Assembly: GCA_963790475.1 (NCBI GenBank)
Contig: CAWBOS010000013.1
Span: 192,001 to 256,000 of the forward strand
Direction of reading: 5' to 3'
DNA: 64,000 nt
From: an uncultured delta proteobacterium
GTDB taxonomy: Bacteria > Desulfobacterota > RBG-13-43-22
Part shown: positions 1-6,930 of the stretch, one piece after another
Layout: each line of letters begins with the position of its first letter
Position numbering within the stretch: position 1 is the stretch's first letter
Position numbers and translations under genes: made by a program
The notes under the pieces: model-generated
Databases searched by the model: none
What the model was told of the DNA's origin: nothing
Seen by the model: only the letters and a program-made list of their open reading frames with translations

Positions 1-71
1 AAATCGTAGCCAAAGGGTCGGTTCCGTCCAAGGCCCAACTGATTGAATGGTTTAAAAAGGTGGAAGGCTAA
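1..71 (+). CDS. 3' end of a small thioredoxin-like protein (MTH895/ArsE type), partial
   Basis: Frame from position 3 reads IVAKGSVPSKAQLIEWFKKVEG*, resembling the C-terminus of the 4966..5214 protein (VKSSGKVPKKEEIKDW). Confidence 0.55.
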   Translation, partial: IVAKGSVPSKAQLIEWFKKVEG

Positions 72-74
72 AAC

Positions 75-299
75 ATGGCCAAAGCGATTGTCTTAACCTT
101 TACCGAGGAAGAAATTCAGACCATTTTGCGCATCGATCTGGACAGTGATCAAACAGGGGCCTTACATTTTATTCGAGAGACAATCGGCAAAAAATTAAAG
201 GTCCTCAGCCGTCCCCATTGTGTACCGGTCTTTGAGGTCACTTACAGCCCCAGGCAAAAAGAGGCCTTTCAACCCACGGGAAAGAACGAAAATCTATGA
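75..299 (+). CDS. Hypothetical 74-aa protein in the ars operon
   Basis: Starts 3 nt after the previous stop; single Cys in PHCVPVFE; family not recognised. Confidence 0.6.
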   Translation: MAKAIVLTFTEEEIQTILRIDLDSDQTGALHFIRETIGKKLKVLSRPHCVPVFEVTYSPRQKEAFQPTGKNENL

Positions 300-320
300 A
301 AAAACATAAGGTAAAAACCC

Positions 321-644
321 ATGCTTAACATCCAACTTCTTCATACCCAAGGCTGACCGGCCAAAGACAAGGCGCTGGAAGCGATTCGAAAAGTACTTGA
401 AGAAAAACGGATCGGTGGCTCGATTGAAGAAATTTTAATTGCCACCGAAGAAGAAGCCCGGAGAAATAATTTTTTGGGTTCTCCAACCATCAAGATCAAT
501 GGGACGGACCTGGAGCCTTCAGCCAGGCATCTTTCCCAAACCGGCCTGGGCTGACGGTTTTATGTCTCTGAGGATGGTCGATTCTCAAAAATGCCGCCGG
601 AATCTTTAATAAGAGAACAAATTGACTTTTTTATGAATAGTTAA
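321..644 (+). CDS. Predicted selenoprotein with two Sec residues; thioredoxin fold, DUF2703-like
   Basis: ATG 321 to TAA 644 with in-frame TGA at 354-356 and 552-554: [28 protein letters not shown]...[24 protein letters not shown]...[28 protein letters not shown]. Both TGAs fall where this family has GCP and CRxY. The gene fills the gap between 299 and acr3. Confidence 0.85.
357..387 (+). promoter_or_regulatory. Candidate bacterial SECIS element 1
   Basis: Hairpin CGCT-GGA-AGCG (373-383); loop begins with G, 20 nt after the TGA; stem is short. Confidence 0.5.
555..596 (+). promoter_or_regulatory. Candidate bacterial SECIS element 2
   Basis: 7-bp upper stem TGAGGAT/ATTCTCA (569-587) with loop GGTCG starting 21 nt after the TGA; lower pairing CGG.TTTT/AAAA.CCG. 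Confidence 0.7.
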
Positions 645-660
645 AAAGGAGGATGGTCAA

Positions 661-1752
661 ATGACCGAAACGATTCCTAAGAAACTTTCTTTTCTGGACC
701 GTTTTCTAACCCTGTGGATCTTCCTGGCCATGCTGGTAGGCGTAGGATCCGGATATCTTTTTCCCCAGGTGGTCGGATTCTGGAATCTCTTTCAGGTGGA
801 CACCACCAATATCCCTATCGCCATCGGGCTGATCCTGATGATGTACCCTCCCCTGGCCAAGGTCAAATATGAAGAACTCGGGGAAGTCTTTAAAAATTAT
901 AAAGTACTGACACTTTCCCTGGTCCAGAACTGGGTCATCGGCCCGATCCTGATGTTTTTCCTGGCCATCCTCTTTCTGGCCGGATATCCGGAATACATGG
1001 TCGGTTTGATCATGATCGGTCTGGCCCGCTGCATCGCCATGGTCATCGTCTGGAACGAGCTGGCCTCCGGGGATACCGAATACTGTGCCGGCCTGGTAGC
1101 CTTCAATTCCATCTTCCAGGTCCTTTTCTTCTCTCTCTATGCCTATATCTTTATTACCATCCTGCCCGGCTGGTTCGGCTTGAAAGGCACGGTGGTCAAT
1201 ATCTCCATCGGTCAGATCGCCAAAAGCGTCTTTATCTATCTGGGGATTCCCTTTATCGCCGGGATCATTACCCGTTTCACCCTGATCAAGATCAAGGACA
1301 AAACCTGGTATCATGAAAAATTCATCCCCAAAATCAGCCCTATCACCCTCATTGCGCTGCTCTTTACCATCATCGTCATGTTTTCCCTCAAGGGGGAATA
1401 CATCGTTCAGCTGCCTCTGGATGTGATCCGTATCGCCATCCCGCTGACCATTTATTTCATCATTATGTTTTTTATCTCCTTTTATATGTCCATGAAAGTC
1501 AAGGCCACCTATGAACAGGCCACAACGTTAAGTTTCACCGCCGCCTCCAACAATTTCGAATTGGCCATTGCCGTAGCCGTGGCCGTCTTCGGCATCAACT
1601 CCGGCGCGGCTTTTGCCGCGGTCATCGGCCCCCTGGTGGAAGTCCCGGTCCTGATCAGTCTGGTCAGTGTGGCCCTGTGGTTTAGACGAAGATACTTTCC
1701 CTTTGCCTTGGAGACACCGACCGGTGTCTGTCATCTGACCTGCAAACCTTAA
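661..1752 (+). CDS. acr3: ACR3-family arsenite efflux transporter
   Basis: [46 protein letters not shown] and GPLVEVPV motifs; RBS AGGAGG. Confidence 0.96.
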
Positions 1753-1769
1753 GGAAGGAGTAATCTGGA

Positions 1770-2294
1770 ATGTTATTGGAAACCTACAGGCTGGAAATTT
1801 TTAATTCAAAGTGCAACCCTGGGGCCATGGCCGTCCATTGTTTCGCCCATCTGGATCAGGACGTAAGCCCGGCCATCCCCTATTTAAACGCGGTTTTGGG
1901 CGGATTCGGCTTCACCAAGGACCCTCCCTCGGTCACCTTCCGGTCTCAGGGCAAGCTCATCACCGTCCATGGAGACAAAATCGCTGTGAATGCCCTAAAG
2001 GATGAAGCTGAAGCCCGAAAAATCGTCGAATGGCTGAAGAGAGAAATCAATGAGGCTTGGGAAAAACGGGATGAAATCGAGCCTTCCTACGAAAGCCTGC
2101 CCCGGCCCCAAGTCATGCCGATTCTTAAACTGCTGCCAAAAACCAATTGCCGGGAATGTGGAGAGCCGACCTGCATGGTTTTCGCCGTATCCGTTACCGA
2201 AGGGATAAAAGGAGCGGAGGACTGCCCCTCCCTGTCCCAGGAAAACAAACATAAACTGGGAATATACTTAAGTCCTTTTAAACTGGACTTATAG
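1770..2294 (+). CDS. (Fe-S)-binding protein with a C-terminal putative Fe-S cluster domain
   Basis: LPKTNCRECGEPTCMVFA...CP motif; RBS AAGGAG. Confidence 0.8.
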   Translation: MLLETYRLEIFNSKCNPGAMAVHCFAHLDQDVSPAIPYLNAVLGGFGFTKDPPSVTFRSQGKLITVHGDKIAVNALKDEAEARKIVEWLKREINEAWEKRDEIEPSYESLPRPQVMPILKLLPKTNCRECGEPTCMVFAVSVTEGIKGAEDCPSLSQENKHKLGIYLSPFKLDL

Positions 2295-2400
2295 GCCGTC
2301 ATGGCAACGCTTTATAAAAATATTCTCTATTCTGACATCTTTTGGGTAATCGCCAACTAATCTATCATGGTATTGAATTACTTTTTATTTCTCTTTTTAC

Positions 2401-2440
2401 TTGACAAACAAGCCAGCAGAAACTATATTACCATATAGTT
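2401..2440 (+). promoter_or_regulatory. Sigma70 promoter with an overlapping palindromic ArsR-type operator
   Basis: TTGACA-N17-TATATT; perfect inverted repeat AACTATAT-TACC-ATATAGTT at 2421-2440. Confidence 0.75.
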
Positions 2441-2494
2441 ATTTAGGGAACAAAACAAGCGAGACTTAGGAACGGTTAGATTCGGAGCAAAGCC

Positions 2495-3571
2495 ATGAAT
2501 GATAAAGTATCCTGTGAATGTATGGAAACAACCATTACGGATTCAACTCAAATAAATCTAAGGAAAAAACTGGTTATCTTGCCGATAACCCTGGTGGTCT
2601 GGTGGATTATTTATCATCAATTACCGAAGGTTACCGGATGGTTGACCTTTGATCTATTCAGTTTGGGAAGAGGGACGCATTTAGGGGAGGCCATCGCCTT
2701 TTTTCTCTATGATGTTCCTAAGGTATTAATGCTTCTGGTCTTGGTCGTATTTGGCGTGGGACTCTTGCGCTCTTTCTTTACCCCGGAAAAAACGAGGGGT
2801 ATCTTAGCCGGTAAAAAAGAGTCCGTAGGCAATGTACTGGCCGCCGGGCTGGGGATTGCCACTCCTTTTTGTACCTGTTCAGCCATCCCGCTATTTATCG
2901 GCTTTGTCGAGGCCGGGGTTCCCCTGGGGGTGACCTTGTCCTTTTTGATCTCCGCCCCCATGATCAATGAAATCGCTCTGGTATTATTATTCGGCCTTTT
3001 CGGCTGGAAAGTGGCCGCCCTTTATCTGACCACCGGGTTGCTGATTGCCATTGTCAGCGGCTGGGTGATCGGCCGGCTGGGCATGGAAAGATATATCGAA
3101 GATTGGGTCCGGGAAATCAGGAGTAACGGTGTTCCGTTAATGATGGAAAAACTGACCTGGTCCGGCCGGATCGACTATGCCTGGCAAGCCGTTAAAGATA
3201 TAGTCGGTAAGGTCTGGATCTATGTCATGGCCGGTATTGCCGTAGGGGCGGCCATTCACGGCTATGTGCCGGTGGGTTTCATGGCCTCTTTCATGGGCCG
3301 GGAGGCCTGGTGGTCGGTTCCTCTGGCTGTGATCCTGGGGGTCCCTATGTATTCCAATGCCGCCGGGATCATCCCCATTGTCCAGGCCCTGCTGGAAAAA
3401 GGAGCCGCTCTGGGCACGGTGTTGGCCTTCATGATGGCGGTTATCGGTTTGTCTTTACCGGAAACGATCATTTTAAGAAAGGTATTGAAACCCCGGCTTA
3501 TCGCTGTTTTCATCGGGGTGGTAGCTACAGGGATTCTTCTGGTGGGTTTTCTCTTTAACGCCCTTTTGTAA
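2495..3571 (+). CDS. arsP: ArsP/DUF318 permease
   Basis: TPFCTCSAIP, FLISAPMINE, GVPMYSNAAG and LSLPE motifs; ars context. Confidence 0.85.
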   Translation: MNDKVSCECMETTITDSTQINLRKKLVILPITLVVWWIIYHQLPKVTGWLTFDLFSLGRGTHLGEAIAFFLYDVPKVLMLLVLVVFGVGLLRSFFTPEKTRGILAGKKESVGNVLAAGLGIATPFCTCSAIPLFIGFVEAGVPLGVTLSFLISAPMINEIALVLLFGLFGWKVAALYLTTGLLIAIVSGWVIGRLGMERYIEDWVREIRSNGVPLMMEKLTWSGRIDYAWQAVKDIVGKVWIYVMAGIAVGAAIHGYVPVGFMASFMGREAWWSVPLAVILGVPMYSNAAGIIPIVQALLEKGAALGTVLAFMMAVIGLSLPETIILRKVLKPRLIAVFIGVVATGILLVGFLFNALL

Positions 3572-3618: not shown

Positions 3619-3954
3619 ATGAAAAAATCAGCAGAGATGAACCAAAAAATACTGGAAGGCCAGGCCTCTATACTCAAAGCCCTGGGGCAGCCCACCCGTT
3701 TGCAAATCTTGGAATTGCTAAATAACGGTGAGCGCTGCGTCTGTGAAATATTTCCGGCTATTCATCAGGAACAGGCCAATGTCTCCAAACACCTTTCGAT
3801 CTTGAAACAGGCCGGTATTTTAGAATCCCGGAAGGACGGTTTGCGTATCCTCTACCGGATAAAAACGCCTGAGATTCTGGACCTGCTGACCGGGGTTTCC
3901 AAACTCTTAAAAGCCCAGGCCAATGAACAGCATCGTTTAATGACCCGATTATAA
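3619..3954 (+). CDS. arsR: ArsR/SmtB-family metalloregulator
   Basis: LKALGQPTRLQIL, ERCVCEI and NVSKHLSILKQAG. Confidence 0.9.
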   Translation: MKKSAEMNQKILEGQASILKALGQPTRLQILELLNNGERCVCEIFPAIHQEQANVSKHLSILKQAGILESRKDGLRILYRIKTPEILDLLTGVSKLLKAQANEQHRLMTRL

Positions 3955-4965: not shown

Positions 4966-5214
4966 ATGGAAATCAAAGTTCTGGGACCCGGATGTCCCAA
5001 ATGTCAGCAAACCGAAAAAATCGTCAAGGAAGCCGTGGCCGAAGCAGGAGTGGATGCCCAAGTGGAAAAAATTACCGATATTATGAAAATCATGACCTTT
5101 GGGGTCATAAGCACCCCGGCCGTTGTAGTGGACGGTCAAGTCAAATCGTCGGGGAAAGTCCCCAAAAAAGAGGAAATAAAAGATTGGATTAGACAAGCAA
5201 AAGTCGCCTCCTGA
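4966..5214 (+). CDS. MTH895/ArsE-family small thioredoxin
   Basis: MEIKVLGPGCPKC...TPAVVVDG; RBS AAGGAGG. Confidence 0.9.
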   Translation: MEIKVLGPGCPKCQQTEKIVKEAVAEAGVDAQVEKITDIMKIMTFGVISTPAVVVDGQVKSSGKVPKKEEIKDWIRQAKVAS

Positions 5215-5312: not shown

Positions 5313-5889
5313 GGAGACAAGGTCATCTCCAAATATTTATCCGAGAAAATAAAAGACTGCCACTATCTCCGAGGAAGAATTGAAAATTTTATATAACCAA
5401 AACAAAGAGATGATAGGCAATGTCCCTTTTGAACAGGCTCAGCAGATTCGGGAGATATTGAAGGACTATCCGGTTGGGCAAAAGAGGGAAGCAGCCGTTA
5501 ACCAATACATCCTGACCCTTGGACGGCAAACACCTATTCAAGTAAATGAAGATTGGGTAAAAAAACAAAGCGTCTTAACTCTGGATAACCCAGTGGATCG
5601 GGCCAGACGGTCCGGCAAGCCAACCATGGTTGAATTCGGGGCCACCGGATGTGTCCCCTGCGATATGATGACCCCCATCCTGGCCGACCTTAGAAAGAAA
5701 TTTCCAGAGAAATTGAATGTCCTTTTCGTCCATGTAGGGCAGGAAAAAATATTGGGTGCCCGTTTTAAAATTCAGGGCATCCCGATCCAGGTCTTCTTCG
5801 ACAAAGACGGCCAGGAGGTTTTCCGACATACCGGTTTTTTCCCTCAATCGGAGCTTGAAAATAAAATGGGTCAACTGGGTTTGATATAG
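5313..5889 (+). pseudogene. N-terminally decayed periplasmic thioredoxin with a SurA-like N-terminal region
   Basis: C-terminal Trx domain (EFGATGCVPC, IPIQVFFD). Upstream DKVISKYLSEKIK joins TATISEEELK through a frameshift at the A-run near 5351. No start codon or signal peptide. Confidence 0.6.
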
Positions 5890-5918
5890 TTCGTACAGGA
5901 CATAGGATATCGAGAAAC

Positions 5919-6221
5919 AAGGAAGTCCCGGTCAAAGGCATGGTTAACCTGATCGACCTGGGGGCCGATTCCTGCCTGCCTTGTAAGATGATGGCCCCAA
6001 TTCTGGAAAAATTGGAAAAAATCTATCAAGGCAAGGCGGCCATCATTTTCATCGATGTCAGGAAGTTCCCGGATCAAGCCAAACGGTTTGGTATCCGGGC
6101 CATACCAACACAAATCTTTTTTGATAAAAAAGGCAAGGAAGTTTACCGCCATGAAGGGTTTATGAGCGAAAAACAAAATGTTGAAATTATTGCCCACATG
6201 CAATAGATAGGGGCCAACTGA
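5919..6221 (+). pseudogene. Thioredoxin with N-terminus missing and a probable premature TAG near the end
   Basis: KEVPVKGMVNLIDLGADSCLPCKMM...IPTQIFFD; no upstream in-frame start; ends MQ*IGAN*. May still be translated from ATG 5940. Confidence 0.6.
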
Positions 6222-6225
6222 AAAA

Positions 6226-6930
6226 ATGCTGGAAAATATTTTTATGACCGTCAATGAATGGCTTATCGGGGGCACCACCATCGCCTTTATCGGGGCTTTT
6301 TTCTGGGGTATGATCAGTGTGGCCTTCAGTCCTTGTCACTTGGCTTCCATCCCTTTGATTGTGGCTTATGTGGGGGGTCAGGAAAAGATGATACAGGCCC
6401 GGCAGGCCGTTTATTACTCCATTGCCTTTACCTCGGGTCTATTTGTCACCATTGCCATCATAGGGATAATCTGTGCCCTCCTGGGCCGGATGCTGGGGGA
6501 TGTGGGCAATTACTGGCAAATCCTTGTGGGGCTGGTTTTGGTCTGGGTGTCTTTGGGTATGCTGGGGGTCGAGAAATGCTCCATGTCGGGCAACCTTTTA
6601 TACCGTCTTAATCTAAAAGGGATTCGGGGGGCCCTGGTTCTTGGTCTGGCTTACGGGGTCCTCTCCGGTTCTTGTACCTTCGGATTTATTGCCCCCATAC
6701 TGGCCATCATCACCATTCAAAAAATGGTCCTCTATGGGATCATCATGATCCTCCTTTTCGCCCTGGGGCATTGCTTGCCTATTGTTGTGGCTGGAAGTTC
6801 CACGGCCGCTGTCCGTAAACTTATTGAAAATCAATCCTGGCAAACCGGAGGCCAGTGGTTCCGCCGCGGGGCCGGTGTGCTCATCGGGCTTCTGGGTCTC
6901 TATTTTATAGTTAATCCATTTATTACCTAA
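6226..6930 (+). CDS. ccdA: CcdA/DsbD-family thiol-disulfide transporter
   Basis: FSPCHLASIP and SGSCTFGF Cys motifs; about 6 TM segments. Confidence 0.88.
   Translation: MLENIFMTVNEWLIGGTTIAFIGAFFWGMISVAFSPCHLASIPLIVAYVGGQEKMIQARQAVYYSIAFTSGLFVTIAIIGIICALLGRMLGDVGNYWQILVGLVLVWVSLGMLGVEKCSMSGNLLYRLNLKGIRGALVLGLAYGVLSGSCTFGFIAPILAIITIQKMVLYGIIMILLFALGHCLPIVVAGSSTAAVRKLIENQSWQTGGQWFRRGAGVLIGLLGLYFIVNPFIT

What the first reader, a model, noticed from the sequence alone, without database searches (positions are those of the whole stretch)
321..644. Hidden double-selenocysteine thioredoxin-fold gene directly upstream of acr3
Seen: the apparent intergenic gap is one 108-codon frame broken only by TGA at codons 12 and 78. 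Each TGA is followed by a hairpin whose G-initiated loop starts 20 or 21 nt downstream, and the product has no Cys. Known: small DUF2703-like thioredoxin-fold proteins have GCP near the N-terminus, FxGSPTIxIxG centrally and CRxY later. The TGAs occupy exactly the two Cys positions, and bacterial SECIS elements lie just 3' of UGA. Inference: a 107-aa protein with two distant Sec residues, perhaps forming a diselenide or binding As(III). Gene callers miss it. I cannot exclude that a (seleno)protein HMM already covers the family, but I know of no characterised role in arsenic handling.
Basis: partly seen in the sequence, partly recalled or inferred. Interest (0 to 1): 0.92.

Follow-up and report, generated by a model that had tools for sequence, protein, structure and literature searches.

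The report
Double-selenocysteine DF-family gene before acr3
A small gene that gene finders break at two TGA codons encodes a thioredoxin-like protein with two selenocysteines: a two-selenium variant of a catalogued but uncharacterised selenoprotein family, sitting in an arsenic-resistance operon.

Summary
Window 321-644 (+) is one 108-codon frame (ATG to TAA) broken only by TGA at codons 12 and 78, with no Cys codon. It scores 104 bits (cut-off 70) on NCBIfam NF049942, 'DF family (seleno)protein'. The family is therefore already catalogued (deep-Sep 2025; a 2026 review lists one Sec, no motif, no function).

The new part is the form. Both near-invariant Cys positions of the family (Cys in 149/150 and 145/150 homologues) are TGA here. 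The same holds in eight more loci of one clade: 7 of 21 genomes of the family-rank group. Elsewhere in the phylum sample, members have no TGA or one TGA. The 14 single-TGA loci read in full all carry it at site 2.

The genome has selA, selB, selD and tRNA-Sec. Codons before, between and after the TGAs show equal purifying selection. The hairpin after TGA-78 is a well-supported SECIS. The hairpin after TGA-12 is at chance level in this genus.

The gene ends 16 nt before acr3. Cys homologues are fused or adjacent to MerT, MerP, MerB, ArsC and ArsM-like genes. The product is most likely a cytosolic selenol pair that binds As(III) for Acr3, or one that cycles as a diselenide. Verdict: new variant of a known kind.

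The parts
321..644 (+). DF-family (NF049942) / DUF2703-like thioredoxin-fold selenoprotein gene, 107 aa, Sec at 12 and 78
   Evidence: frame. (NF049942, 104.2 bits against cut-off 70). (PF10865, 27.8 bits against 23.6). (88.5 bits on raw DNA, 2 TGA). (AF2 pLDDT 95.8, beta-alpha-beta-alpha-beta-beta-alpha).
308..311 (+). AAGG, Shine-Dalgarno-like, 9 nt before the ATG
   Evidence: Read directly. The start codon ATG or GTG is at the same codon in 8 of 9 loci.
354..356 (+). TGA codon 12, aligned with the family's first invariant Cys (the position of the first Cys of a thioredoxin CXXC)
   Evidence: Cys 149/150. TGA in 9/9 loci of the clade. No other letter in contigs of runs X1, X2, X3.
373..383 (+). 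Weak candidate SECIS 1: CGCU-GGA-AGCG, loop 20 nt after TGA-12
   Evidence: -2.0 kcal/mol, at chance level. It is homologous in place to a 9-bp hairpin (-11.4 kcal/mol) in L032. It fails the published energy criterion.
552..554 (+). TGA codon 78, aligned with the family's second conserved Cys and with the single Sec of one-TGA family members
569..587 (+). SECIS 2: UGAGGAU-GGUCG-AUUCUCA, loop 21 nt after TGA-78
   Evidence: 23 of 24 Sec sites in the family have a >=6-bp hairpin with a G-led loop at 16-22 nt, in 16 distinct stem-loops. This compares with 0/10 and 14/72 Cys forms and 166/2952 control codons.
75..299 (+). Upstream 74-aa ORF of no known family, same strand, 21 nt before the DF gene
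   Evidence: no Pfam or NCBIfam hit. Conserved next to the thioredoxin-like gene in relatives.
661..1752 (+). acr3 arsenite efflux gene, starting 16 nt after the DF stop, with its own AGGAGG
   Evidence: TIGR00832, 463 bits against cut-off 283. Follows the DF gene in all 9 loci of the genus and in L110-L116.
1770..2294 (+). 174-aa protein with a C-terminal PF04060 Fe-S domain, conserved after acr3
2495..3571 (+). ArsP-type permease
   Evidence: PF03773, 251 bits.
3619..3954 (+). ArsR/SmtB regulator
4966..5214 (+). MTH895/ArsE-family CxxC thioredoxin-like protein. A second one (166 aa) lies just before the window, at L026:742-1242.

Best explanation
Window 321-644 is a real, translated gene. 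It lies in an ars operon with this order: CxxC thioredoxin-like gene, 74-aa ORF, this gene, acr3, Fe-S protein, then arsP, arsR, a CDF gene and a second thioredoxin-like gene. It encodes a cytosolic 107-aa thioredoxin-fold protein of the DF/DUF2703 family. The family's two conserved cysteines are both replaced by selenocysteine. One sits at the start of helix 1, where thioredoxins carry the first Cys of CXXC. The other is a distal Cys in a C-R-x-Y motif. These points are shown or strongly supported: the frame, family membership, the Sec/Cys pairs, the Sec machinery, selection on all three segments, and a covarying SECIS at the second UGA. The next step is inferred. The two selenols form the family's soft-metal(loid) site. 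In this operon they would bind As(III) in the cytosol and pass it by ligand exchange to Acr3, much as ArsD serves ArsA and as NmerA/MerP-type Cys pairs serve the mer system. Selenium would give tighter and faster As(III) capture at neutral pH. My odds are about 0.85 for 'real gene with Sec at both sites' and about 0.45 for the As(III)-transfer mechanism itself.
For: Gene and Sec. NF049942 scores 104.2 bits against cut-off 70. Cys occupies position 12 in 149/150 and position 78 in 145/150 homologues. The genome holds selB at 391 bits, selA at 630 bits, selD at 394 bits with its own in-frame TGA, and tRNA-Sec at 74 bits with anticodon TCA. Nine loci in 7 genomes carry both TGAs at identical spacing and form one clade with 98/98 support. 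pN/pS is 0.23, 0.31 and 0.31 for codons 1-11, 13-77 and 79-107, and third positions vary most in each segment. Codons 1-11 encode the beta-1 strand of a confidently predicted thioredoxin fold (pLDDT 95.8; Foldseek hits are all thioredoxin-fold). Contigs of three other metagenome runs show no other letter at either TGA where they cover it.

SECIS 2. 23/24 Sec sites have the hairpin, in 16 distinct stem-loops, against 0/10 Cys forms of the phylum. There is one clean double change, U-A to G-C, between the window and L032.

Role. The gene ends 16 nt before acr3 in all 9 loci of the genus. Cys homologues are fused to MerT, MerT+HMA, MerB and AhpC/TSA and to an LMW-PTP ArsC-type domain. Single-Sec members lie beside ArsM-like methyltransferases, and a weak member lies beside MerT/MerP. 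Of 73 distant loci, 12 have MerT, 8 an HMA protein, 3 MerB and 4 an ArsM-like gene within 5 kb, often immediately downstream. The mer contexts need metal hand-over, not disulfide reduction (recalled knowledge of mer systems). G000 has no intact ArsC by TIGR02691, TIGR00014 or tblastn, so the protein here cannot depend on ArsC. Two ordinary CxxC thioredoxin-like proteins in the same operon already cover a reductant role.
Against: There is no experimental or structural evidence of As(III) binding or of contact with Acr3. The complex prediction could not be run. I had no model coordinates, so the closeness of residues 12 and 78 is not verified.

The hairpin after UGA-12 fails the published bSECIS energy criterion in all 8 loci of the genus. 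It is the outlier among four UGA sites examined in this genome. How UGA-12 is decoded is therefore open.

The protein is not required by Acr3. In four relatives (L039, L041, L049, L052) the same operon goes from the 74-aa ORF or the thioredoxin-like gene through a different small ORF to acr3, with no DF gene. Ten of 21 genomes of the family-rank group lack a DF match. The double-Sec copy of genus g4 (L032) is not beside acr3 but beside URO-D-type and B12-binding genes, and it has no canonical start codon before UGA-12.

Fusions to ArsC-type and AhpC/TSA domains fit a redox role as well. The neighbourhood census used single tblastn queries and no matched background control. Five of 150 homologues lack Cys at position 78 (P, W, L, Y and one truncation).
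Confidence: 0.55

Rival explanations
1. Same gene and same two selenocysteines, but the pair works as a redox couple (selenol/diselenide or selenenyl intermediates). It would be a thioredoxin-like reductant that recycles a Trx-coupled LMW-PTP ArsC or a peroxiredoxin. Alternatively it is itself an As(V) or organoarsenical reductase, with Sec-12 as nucleophile and Sec-78 as resolving residue, re-reduced by the operon's CxxC thioredoxin-like proteins.
For: Predicted thioredoxin fold with Sec-12 at the canonical active-site position. Cys homologues are fused to an LMW-PTP ArsC-type domain in genus g2 and to AhpC/TSA. Intact Trx-coupled-type ArsC genes lie divergently upstream of the operon in L111, L112, L114 and L116. 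A DUF2703 protein was proposed as the ArsC reductant in Rhodococcus (PMC6514093, passages). Most known selenoproteins are redox proteins (PMC13188914, passages).
Against: G000 keeps the gene but has no intact ArsC. The copy in L110 has an internal stop. There is no second Cys/Sec at +3 (U-P-A-K), so it is not a CXXC thioredoxin. Two CxxC thioredoxin-like genes already sit in the operon. The commonest recognisable partners of Cys homologues are MerT, HMA and MerB, where no disulfide has to be reduced (recalled). A diselenide is hard to re-reduce (recalled).
Confidence: 0.25
2. Only UGA-78 is read as selenocysteine. UGA-12, which lacks a convincing SECIS in this genus, either terminates most ribosomes or is read through by a near-cognate tRNA (Trp or Cys). 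The functional product would then carry one Sec, or the protein would be made at very low level.
For: Hairpin 1 is 4 bp at -2.0 kcal/mol, and 32% of control codons do as well. The best extended helix is -5 to +4 kcal/mol in the 8 loci of the genus. RNAalifold finds no compensatory pair. The other three UGA sites looked at in this genome have 6-7-bp hairpins. Every one of the 14 single-TGA family members read in full has its Sec at site 2 only.
Against: TGA-12 is kept in 9/9 loci despite pS of about 0.5 around it. It is never TGC, TGT or TGG. The apical CGCU-GGA-(A/G)GCG is at the same 20-nt spacing as the strong 9-bp hairpin of L032. A UGGA loop also occurs in the site-2 SECIS of L076. Published reviews state that a subset of bacterial SECIS elements do not fit the consensus model (PMC13188914, section 5).
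Confidence: 0.1
3. Not a functional gene: a decaying pseudogene, or intergenic DNA that merely resembles DUF2703.
For: Table 11 shows no ORF here. One public record annotates only a 59-aa fragment.
Against: Both interruptions are TGA, exactly at the two Cys columns, in 9 loci. There are no frameshifts or other stops. pN/pS is 0.23-0.31 in all segments. The site-2 SECIS covaries.
Confidence: 0.02

Closest known systems
'Hypothetical protein DF' / NCBIfam NF049942 'DF family (seleno)protein' (Xiao & Zhang 2025, deep-Sep, PMC12013277; listed in Zhang et al. 2026, PMC13188914)
   Same: Same family by the curated HMM (104 bits against 70). Sec at the C-R-x-Y site, as in the single-TGA members I read. 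Cys-containing homologues are widespread.
   Different: The published entry is one Sec per protein, no motif, 'no conserved domains', one organism, no TGA-containing homologues elsewhere and no function (passages). Here both conserved Cys are Sec. I also found 23 single-TGA rows in 401 genomes of the phylum, and a consistent As/Hg gene context. I could not see the HMM's own description or the paper's supplements.
Pfam DUF2703 (PF10865), thioredoxin-like clan; DUF2703 gene in the Rhodococcus aetherivorans BCP1 ars cluster (PMC6514093; PMC3091736)
   Same: Weak but above-threshold Pfam match (27.8 against 23.6). Thioredoxin fold. Found in ars clusters. Fusions with ArsD are reported.
   Different: The Rhodococcus protein has a CXXC motif and Cys only, and was proposed as a Trx-type reductant. 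The window protein has no CXXC, and both reactive residues are Sec.
ArsD arsenic metallochaperone (PF06953)
   Same: Small cytosolic thioredoxin-fold protein, encoded immediately upstream of the efflux component it serves. It binds As(III) with vicinal thiols and hands it over. This is what I propose the window protein works like.
   Different: Not a member: no PF06953 hit at E<=0.01. ArsD uses three Cys and serves the ArsA ATPase. No chaperone for Acr3 came up in my searches.
MerP / NmerA (HMA-fold Cys pairs of mer operons)
   Same: A two-thiol site that relays a soft metal next to MerT or MerB. Cys homologues of the DF family are fused or adjacent to MerT, HMA and MerB.
   Different: Different fold (ferredoxin-like HMA against thioredoxin-like). 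The Cys pair is CXXC rather than two distant residues.
SaoT and MTH895/ArsE-family thioredoxin-like (seleno)proteins (NF040730, TIGR00412; Haft & Gwadz preprint 10.1101/2022.07.06.499078)
   Same: Small thioredoxin-like proteins, some with Sec, in heavy-metal/organometal gene clusters. TIGR00412 members sit in this same operon.
   Different: Those carry U/C within a CXXC-type motif. P0001 does not reach either model (one search lists only NF049942).

Membership tests
NCBIfam NF049942 DF family (seleno)protein | Score over the curated cut-off (70 bits) across the whole 96-position model | tested here: met
   104.2 bits, residues 4-99 on model 1-95. 88.5 bits on raw DNA with 2 TGA read through.
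NCBIfam NF049942 DF family (seleno)protein | Sec or Cys at the C/U-R-x-Y site | tested here: met
   TGA-78 aligns with the TGA of all 14 single-TGA members read in full and with Cys in 145/150 homologues.
NCBIfam NF049942 DF family (seleno)protein | One Sec per protein, as listed in the 2026 review table | tested here: not met
   Two TGAs. This makes it a variant of the family and does not exclude membership.
Pfam PF10865 DUF2703 | Gathering score 23.6 | tested here: met
   27.8 bits, residues 16-98 on profile 26-117/120. The N-terminal Sec region is not covered.
Bacterial selenoprotein gene | In-frame UGA aligned with Cys in homologues | tested here: met
   Both sites.
Bacterial selenoprotein gene | selA, selB, selD and tRNA-Sec in the genome | tested here: met
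   All four over their cut-offs. ARAGORN finds tRNA-SeC with anticodon tca.
Bacterial selenoprotein gene | [quoted passage not shown] 2 legend) | tested here: met
   7 bp, loop GGUCG, spacing 21. RNAfold gives -10.9 kcal/mol for +4..+50. Family-wide support. bSECISearch itself was not available.
Bacterial selenoprotein gene | The same bSECIS model after UGA-12 | tested here: not met
   4 bp, loop GGA, spacing 20, but -2.0 kcal/mol for the stem and -6.6 for +4..+50. Met only in L032 (-15.4).
Thioredoxin-fold superfamily | beta-alpha-beta-alpha-beta-beta-alpha core with a cis-Pro loop | tested here: met
   AF2 model: pLDDT 95.8, E2-8 H15-28 E33-39 H43-48 E56-59 ... H94-106, with G-S-P at 53-55. 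All Foldseek PDB hits listed are thioredoxin-fold, but weak (best E 5e-3, TM 0.53).
Thioredoxin/glutaredoxin proper | CXXC (or UXXC) active-site motif | tested here: not met
   U-P-A-K. Position 15 is H, Y or A in homologues.
ArsD (PF06953) | Match to the family model | tested here: not met
   No hit at E<=0.01. The claim is 'works like', not membership.

The most novel reading that the evidence does not exclude
A selenium-based metalloid chaperone. Two distant selenocysteines on a thioredoxin scaffold would form a diselenol As(III) site that feeds the Acr3 pump. This would be the first dedicated partner described for Acr3 and the first selenoprotein metallochaperone. The first of its two UGAs would be decoded with only a 4-bp mini-hairpin, outside the current bacterial SECIS model.
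Probability: 0.3. Interest if true: 0.75.

Novelty: new variant of a known kind. Interest (0 to 1): 0.55.

Why it matters
The DF family is listed among prokaryotic selenoproteins as a hypothetical protein with one Sec and no function.

This locus and its relatives give three things. First, a natural form in which both reactive residues are selenium. Such forms are rare in bacteria: the review says only 'a small subset' of 119 families have 2-3 Sec. Second, a concrete and testable role, through tight linkage to acr3 and repeated fusion or adjacency of Cys homologues to mer and ars genes. Third, a test case for Sec insertion at a UGA without a model-conforming SECIS.

It also shows that ars operons of anaerobic sediment bacteria are under-annotated. 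The gene is absent or truncated in public calls.

Tried and rejected
Genome-wide TGA reassignment (code 4 or 25) is rejected. The neighbouring genes are full-length table-11 ORFs matching their family models end to end, and the 74-aa ORF ends in TGA.

Sequencing error is rejected: 9 loci and contigs of runs X1-X3 keep the TGAs. The RNA run X20 covered only a conserved part of acr3 (places 675-750) and says nothing about expression of this gene.

Rfam gave no match at E<=1 in window 1-3000.

A PDB sequence search gave only a chance hit (E 0.17, designed TIM barrel).

A covariance model of SECIS 2 (R1) was too sequence-specific. It recovered only the 12 close copies plus noise, so I did not use its alignment A8 for pair counts. 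I counted hairpins by script instead. That count selects the best hairpin per site, so 'paired' is partly by construction. The controls are the Cys forms and the control codons.

In one search one control row (L077, site 1) was mislocated by my regular expression and should be ignored.

RNAalifold on 60 and 96 nt around UGA-12 gave only weak consensus helices with 0 compensatory pairs.

The search for homologous proteins found only 3 proteins; the exhaustive search was needed.

Literature. 'DF family'+selenoprotein gave 0 papers. DUF2703 gave 2 papers. Five-term searches gave 38 and 43 papers, with 15 and 12 listed. 'UXX-star' is. In these listings and the passages I read, I found no description of a double-Sec DF protein or of a selenoprotein partner of Acr3. 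Haft & Tolstoy 2025 is not held; I saw it only through the review's table. I did not measure the 12-78 distance because model coordinates are not exposed.
Full report
OBSERVATION. Window 321-644 on the + strand is a single frame of 108 codons, from ATG (321) to TAA (642-644). It is interrupted only by TGA at 354-356 (codon 12) and 552-554 (codon 78). Read with TGA=U it gives a 107-residue product without cysteine. Table 11 sees only 52-56-residue ORFs here. The stretch therefore looks like a gap between a 74-aa ORF (75-299) and acr3 (661-1752; TIGR00832, 463 bits against a cut-off of 283). An AAGG lies 9 nt before the ATG.

WHAT IT IS. The read-through product scores 104.2 bits (cut-off 70) over the whole of NCBIfam NF049942, 'DF family (seleno)protein'. 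It scores 27.8 bits (cut-off 23.6) on Pfam DUF2703. An exhaustive HMMER search found 1889 homologues at E<=0.001 and none at E<=1e-30. Among the best 150, position 12 is Cys in 149 (the other is N-terminally truncated). P13 occurs in 143, and G53-S54-P55 in 150/149/149. Position 78 is Cys in 145; the rest are P, W, L, Y and one protein that ends exactly there. R79 occurs in 149 and Y81 in 146. The two TGAs thus fall exactly on the family's two conserved cysteines. AlphaFold2 with 116 aligned sequences gives a confident thioredoxin-type fold (pLDDT 95.8). Residue 12 sits between strand 1 and helix 1, and G-S-P sits before strand 3. Foldseek against the PDB returns only thioredoxin-fold proteins and only weakly (best E 5e-3, TM 0.53). 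No solved relative is found by sequence. There is no CXXC motif: the motif reads U-P-A-K.

IS IT TRANSLATED, AND AS SELENOCYSTEINE? The genome (G000, 6.3 Mb, 20 contigs, completeness 100, contamination 9.7) has all four components of the Sec machinery. selB scores 391 bits and selA 630 bits. selD scores 394 bits and has an in-frame TGA of its own. tRNA-Sec scores 74 bits, and ARAGORN gives anticodon tca.

Scanning raw DNA of the 21 genomes of the same family-rank group found the two-TGA form in 9 loci of 7 genomes. These are genus g1 (G000, G004, G009 twice, G010, G011, G013 twice) and genus g4 (G016). G012 has a tenth copy whose 5' part is masked. All nine have the same spacing: 66 codons between the TGAs and 30 after. 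In a maximum-likelihood tree of 33 family members the nine form one clade (98/98).

Among the eight copies of the genus, pN/pS is 0.23 for codons 1-11, 0.31 for 13-77 and 0.31 for 79-107. Variable sites by codon position are 6/3/10, 26/15/41 and 11/6/21. The eleven codons alone would not be significant. They do encode the first strand of the fold and match the family consensus. Both TGAs are kept in all nine copies although synonymous divergence is about 0.4-0.6.

Contigs of three other metagenome runs that cover 354-356 (X1, X2, X3) or 552-554 (X3) show no other letter there. The RNA run did not cover the gene.

THE TWO HAIRPINS. I applied the published bacterial SECIS model (loop 3-9 nt with G in its first two positions, stem 4-16 bp, 16-37 nt from UGA, MFE <= -7.5; PMC13188914, section 5 read whole).

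After UGA-78 the window has UGAGGAU-GGUCG-AUUCUCA (569-587), 21 nt downstream. RNAfold gives -10.9 kcal/mol for +4..+50. Across the family, 23 of 24 UGA sites at this position have a hairpin of at least 6 bp with a G-led loop 16-22 nt downstream, in 16 different stem-loop sequences. Examples are GGAAAAC/GUUUUCC, CGAGGC/GCCUCG, GGGGCAUC/GGUGCCCC and GGGAUC/GAUCCC. The controls are 0 of 10 Cys forms from the same phylum, 14 of 72 Cys forms from distant (often GC-rich) phyla, and 166 of 2952 control codons in the window. This is a bona fide SECIS.

After UGA-12 the window has only CGCU-GGA-AGCG (373-383), 20 nt downstream, at -2.0 kcal/mol. 32% of control codons do as well. The extended helix has two mismatches and scores -5 to +4 kcal/mol in the eight copies of the genus. 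RNAalifold finds no compensatory pair. Only the g4 copy (L032) has a strong 9-bp hairpin at the same place (-11.4). In this genome selD, a small G-U-N-U ORF and DF site 2 all have 6-7-bp hairpins, so site 1 is the outlier. Part of the conservation of GCGCUGGA is explained by the conserved peptide A-L-E, which Cys forms also encode. How UGA-12 is decoded is therefore the weakest link.

WHAT IS KNOWN. 'Hypothetical protein DF' was reported in 2025 by the deep-Sep method. It was named after Desulfosediminicola flagellatus, described as having no conserved domain, with Cys homologues but no TGA-containing homologues in other organisms (PMC12013277, passages). A 2026 review lists it with NF049942, one Sec, no motif and no function (PMC13188914, passages).

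In my sample of 401 genomes of the phylum, 40 have a match at E<=1e-8, giving 42 rows. Fourteen rows have no stop, 23 have one TGA and 5 have two TGA. All two-TGA rows come from the window's own family-rank group. All 14 single-TGA loci that I read have the TGA at site 2 and Cys at site 1; 8 further single-TGA rows were not fetched. The double-Sec form is thus a lineage-restricted variant of a catalogued family.

DUF2703 was assigned to the thioredoxin clan in 2010 and noted in fusions with ArsD (PMC3091736, passages). A CXXC-type DUF2703 gene in a Rhodococcus ars cluster was proposed as an ArsC reductant (PMC6514093, passages).

CONTEXT AND MECHANISM. The operon reads as follows. It starts with a promoter-like site (11/12 matches, just outside the window). 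Then come a 166-aa MTH895/ArsE-family CxxC protein, the 74-aa ORF, the DF gene, acr3, a 174-aa Fe-S-domain protein, arsP, arsR, a CDF transporter and an 82-aa MTH895/ArsE-family protein. After these come a thioredoxin-like gene and a DsbD-like gene.

acr3 follows the DF gene in all nine loci of the genus (only 95 residues matched in L031). The same holds in the seven named close records L110-L116.

Cys homologues are fused to MerT, MerT+HMA, MerB, AhpC/TSA, CoaE and a SnoaL-like domain (10 long proteins scanned). In genus g2 they are fused to an LMW-PTP ArsC-type domain. Single-Sec members L075 and L077 lie beside ArsM-like methyltransferases, and L074 lies beside MerP and MerT. Of 73 distant loci, 12 have MerT, 8 an HMA protein, 3 MerB and 4 an ArsM-like gene within 5 kb. 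In all, 23 of 73 have at least one such neighbour (single-query tblastn, no matched background).

G000 has no intact ArsC. TIGR02691 gives only a 44-residue fragment, TIGR00014 gives nothing, and tblastn gives nothing. Relatives L111, L112, L114 and L116 have an intact Trx-coupled-type ArsC divergently upstream, and L110 has one with an internal stop.

I conclude that the family is a two-thiol, soft-metal(loid)-handling thioredoxin-fold module. In this operon the diselenol most likely captures As(III) and relays it to Acr3 (about 0.45). The main rival is a redox (diselenide) role (about 0.25).

Several facts count against any obligatory link. Four relatives have the operon without the DF gene. 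Ten of 21 genomes lack it. The g4 copy sits beside URO-D-type and B12-binding genes.

VERDICT. The gene is real and the double selenocysteine is well supported. The family is already known, so this is a new variant of a known kind. The function is inferred.

Noticed in passing
L039:1967-2239, L029:1173-1442, L044:1165-1443, L049:1993-2262, L052:1726-1995, L196, L197, L204 and others; in G000 at C12:1396478-1396714(-) (L201/L109); not in the window: A family of ~90-aa ORFs in the same ars operons of relatives, between the 74-aa ORF and acr3 or the DF gene. Each has a signal-peptide-like N-terminus, a Pro-rich middle and an end ...Q-E/P-x-x-x-x-G/D-TGA-(Ser/Asn codon)-TGA. A covarying 6-7-bp hairpin (CCAUCC/GGAUGG, GUCUCC/GGAGAC, CCCUCC/GGAGGG) has a G-led loop 18 nt after the first TGA. 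This may be a secreted selenopeptide with a C-terminal G-U-x-(U or stop). No NCBIfam hit at E<=1 for 4 members read with TGA=C, apart from chance-level matches. No Cys-form was seen in the 21 genomes searched.
   Followed up: partly
window 75-299 (+): A 74-aa ORF with one Cys (…R-P-H-C-V-P…) and no Pfam or NCBIfam family. It is conserved (67-89% identity) right after the 166-aa thioredoxin-like gene in relatives, and it ends in TGA.
   Followed up: partly
window 1722-1749 (C-terminus of acr3): Acr3 here ends in [14 protein letters not shown]-x3-C tail of this kind is present in 20 of 30 Acr3 proteins sampled from the phylum. It could be a cytosolic As(III) hand-over site.
   Followed up: partly
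window 1770-2294 (+): A 174-aa protein whose C-terminal 32 residues match the PF04060 Fe-S domain (as at the N-terminus of corrinoid Fe-S proteins and RnfB). It is conserved directly after acr3 in 6 of 7 close records. Its role in an ars operon is unknown.
   Followed up: no
G000:C12:1422434-1423259 (L078): A scarred second ars locus. It holds the first 45 residues of an Acr3, the last 137 residues of an ArsP and the last ~44 residues of an LMW-PTP ArsC, and no intact gene.
   Followed up: partly
G000:C13:443305-444664 (outside the window): A second selA copy on the window's contig is split into at least four pieces in different frames, one of them with a TAA. The intact selA is on C20.
   Followed up: no
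L032:1490-1520 (G016): The g4 double-Sec copy has a TAG eight codons before UGA-12, and no ATG, GTG or TTG between them. Its start is either non-canonical or affected by an assembly error.
   Followed up: no
P0081 (representative library): A homologue has Trp at position 78 in G-L-G-W-R-V-Y…E-A-G-R-F, the sequence context typical of the Sec forms. It may be a TGA translated as Trp by a pipeline. No DNA was available to check.
   Followed up: no
window 5380-6930: A thioredoxin-like (TlpA/ResA-type) gene and a DsbD-like membrane protein follow the ars genes. They have weak matches to parts of the rhodanese/DsbD-fusion selenoprotein TsoB model.
   Followed up: no
L160 (named Desulforhopalus sp. 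MAG record): Another single-TGA DF member (…F-G-U-R-V-Y-Q-D-E-A-G-S-F-S-K), without a simple uninterrupted hairpin by my script.
   Followed up: no
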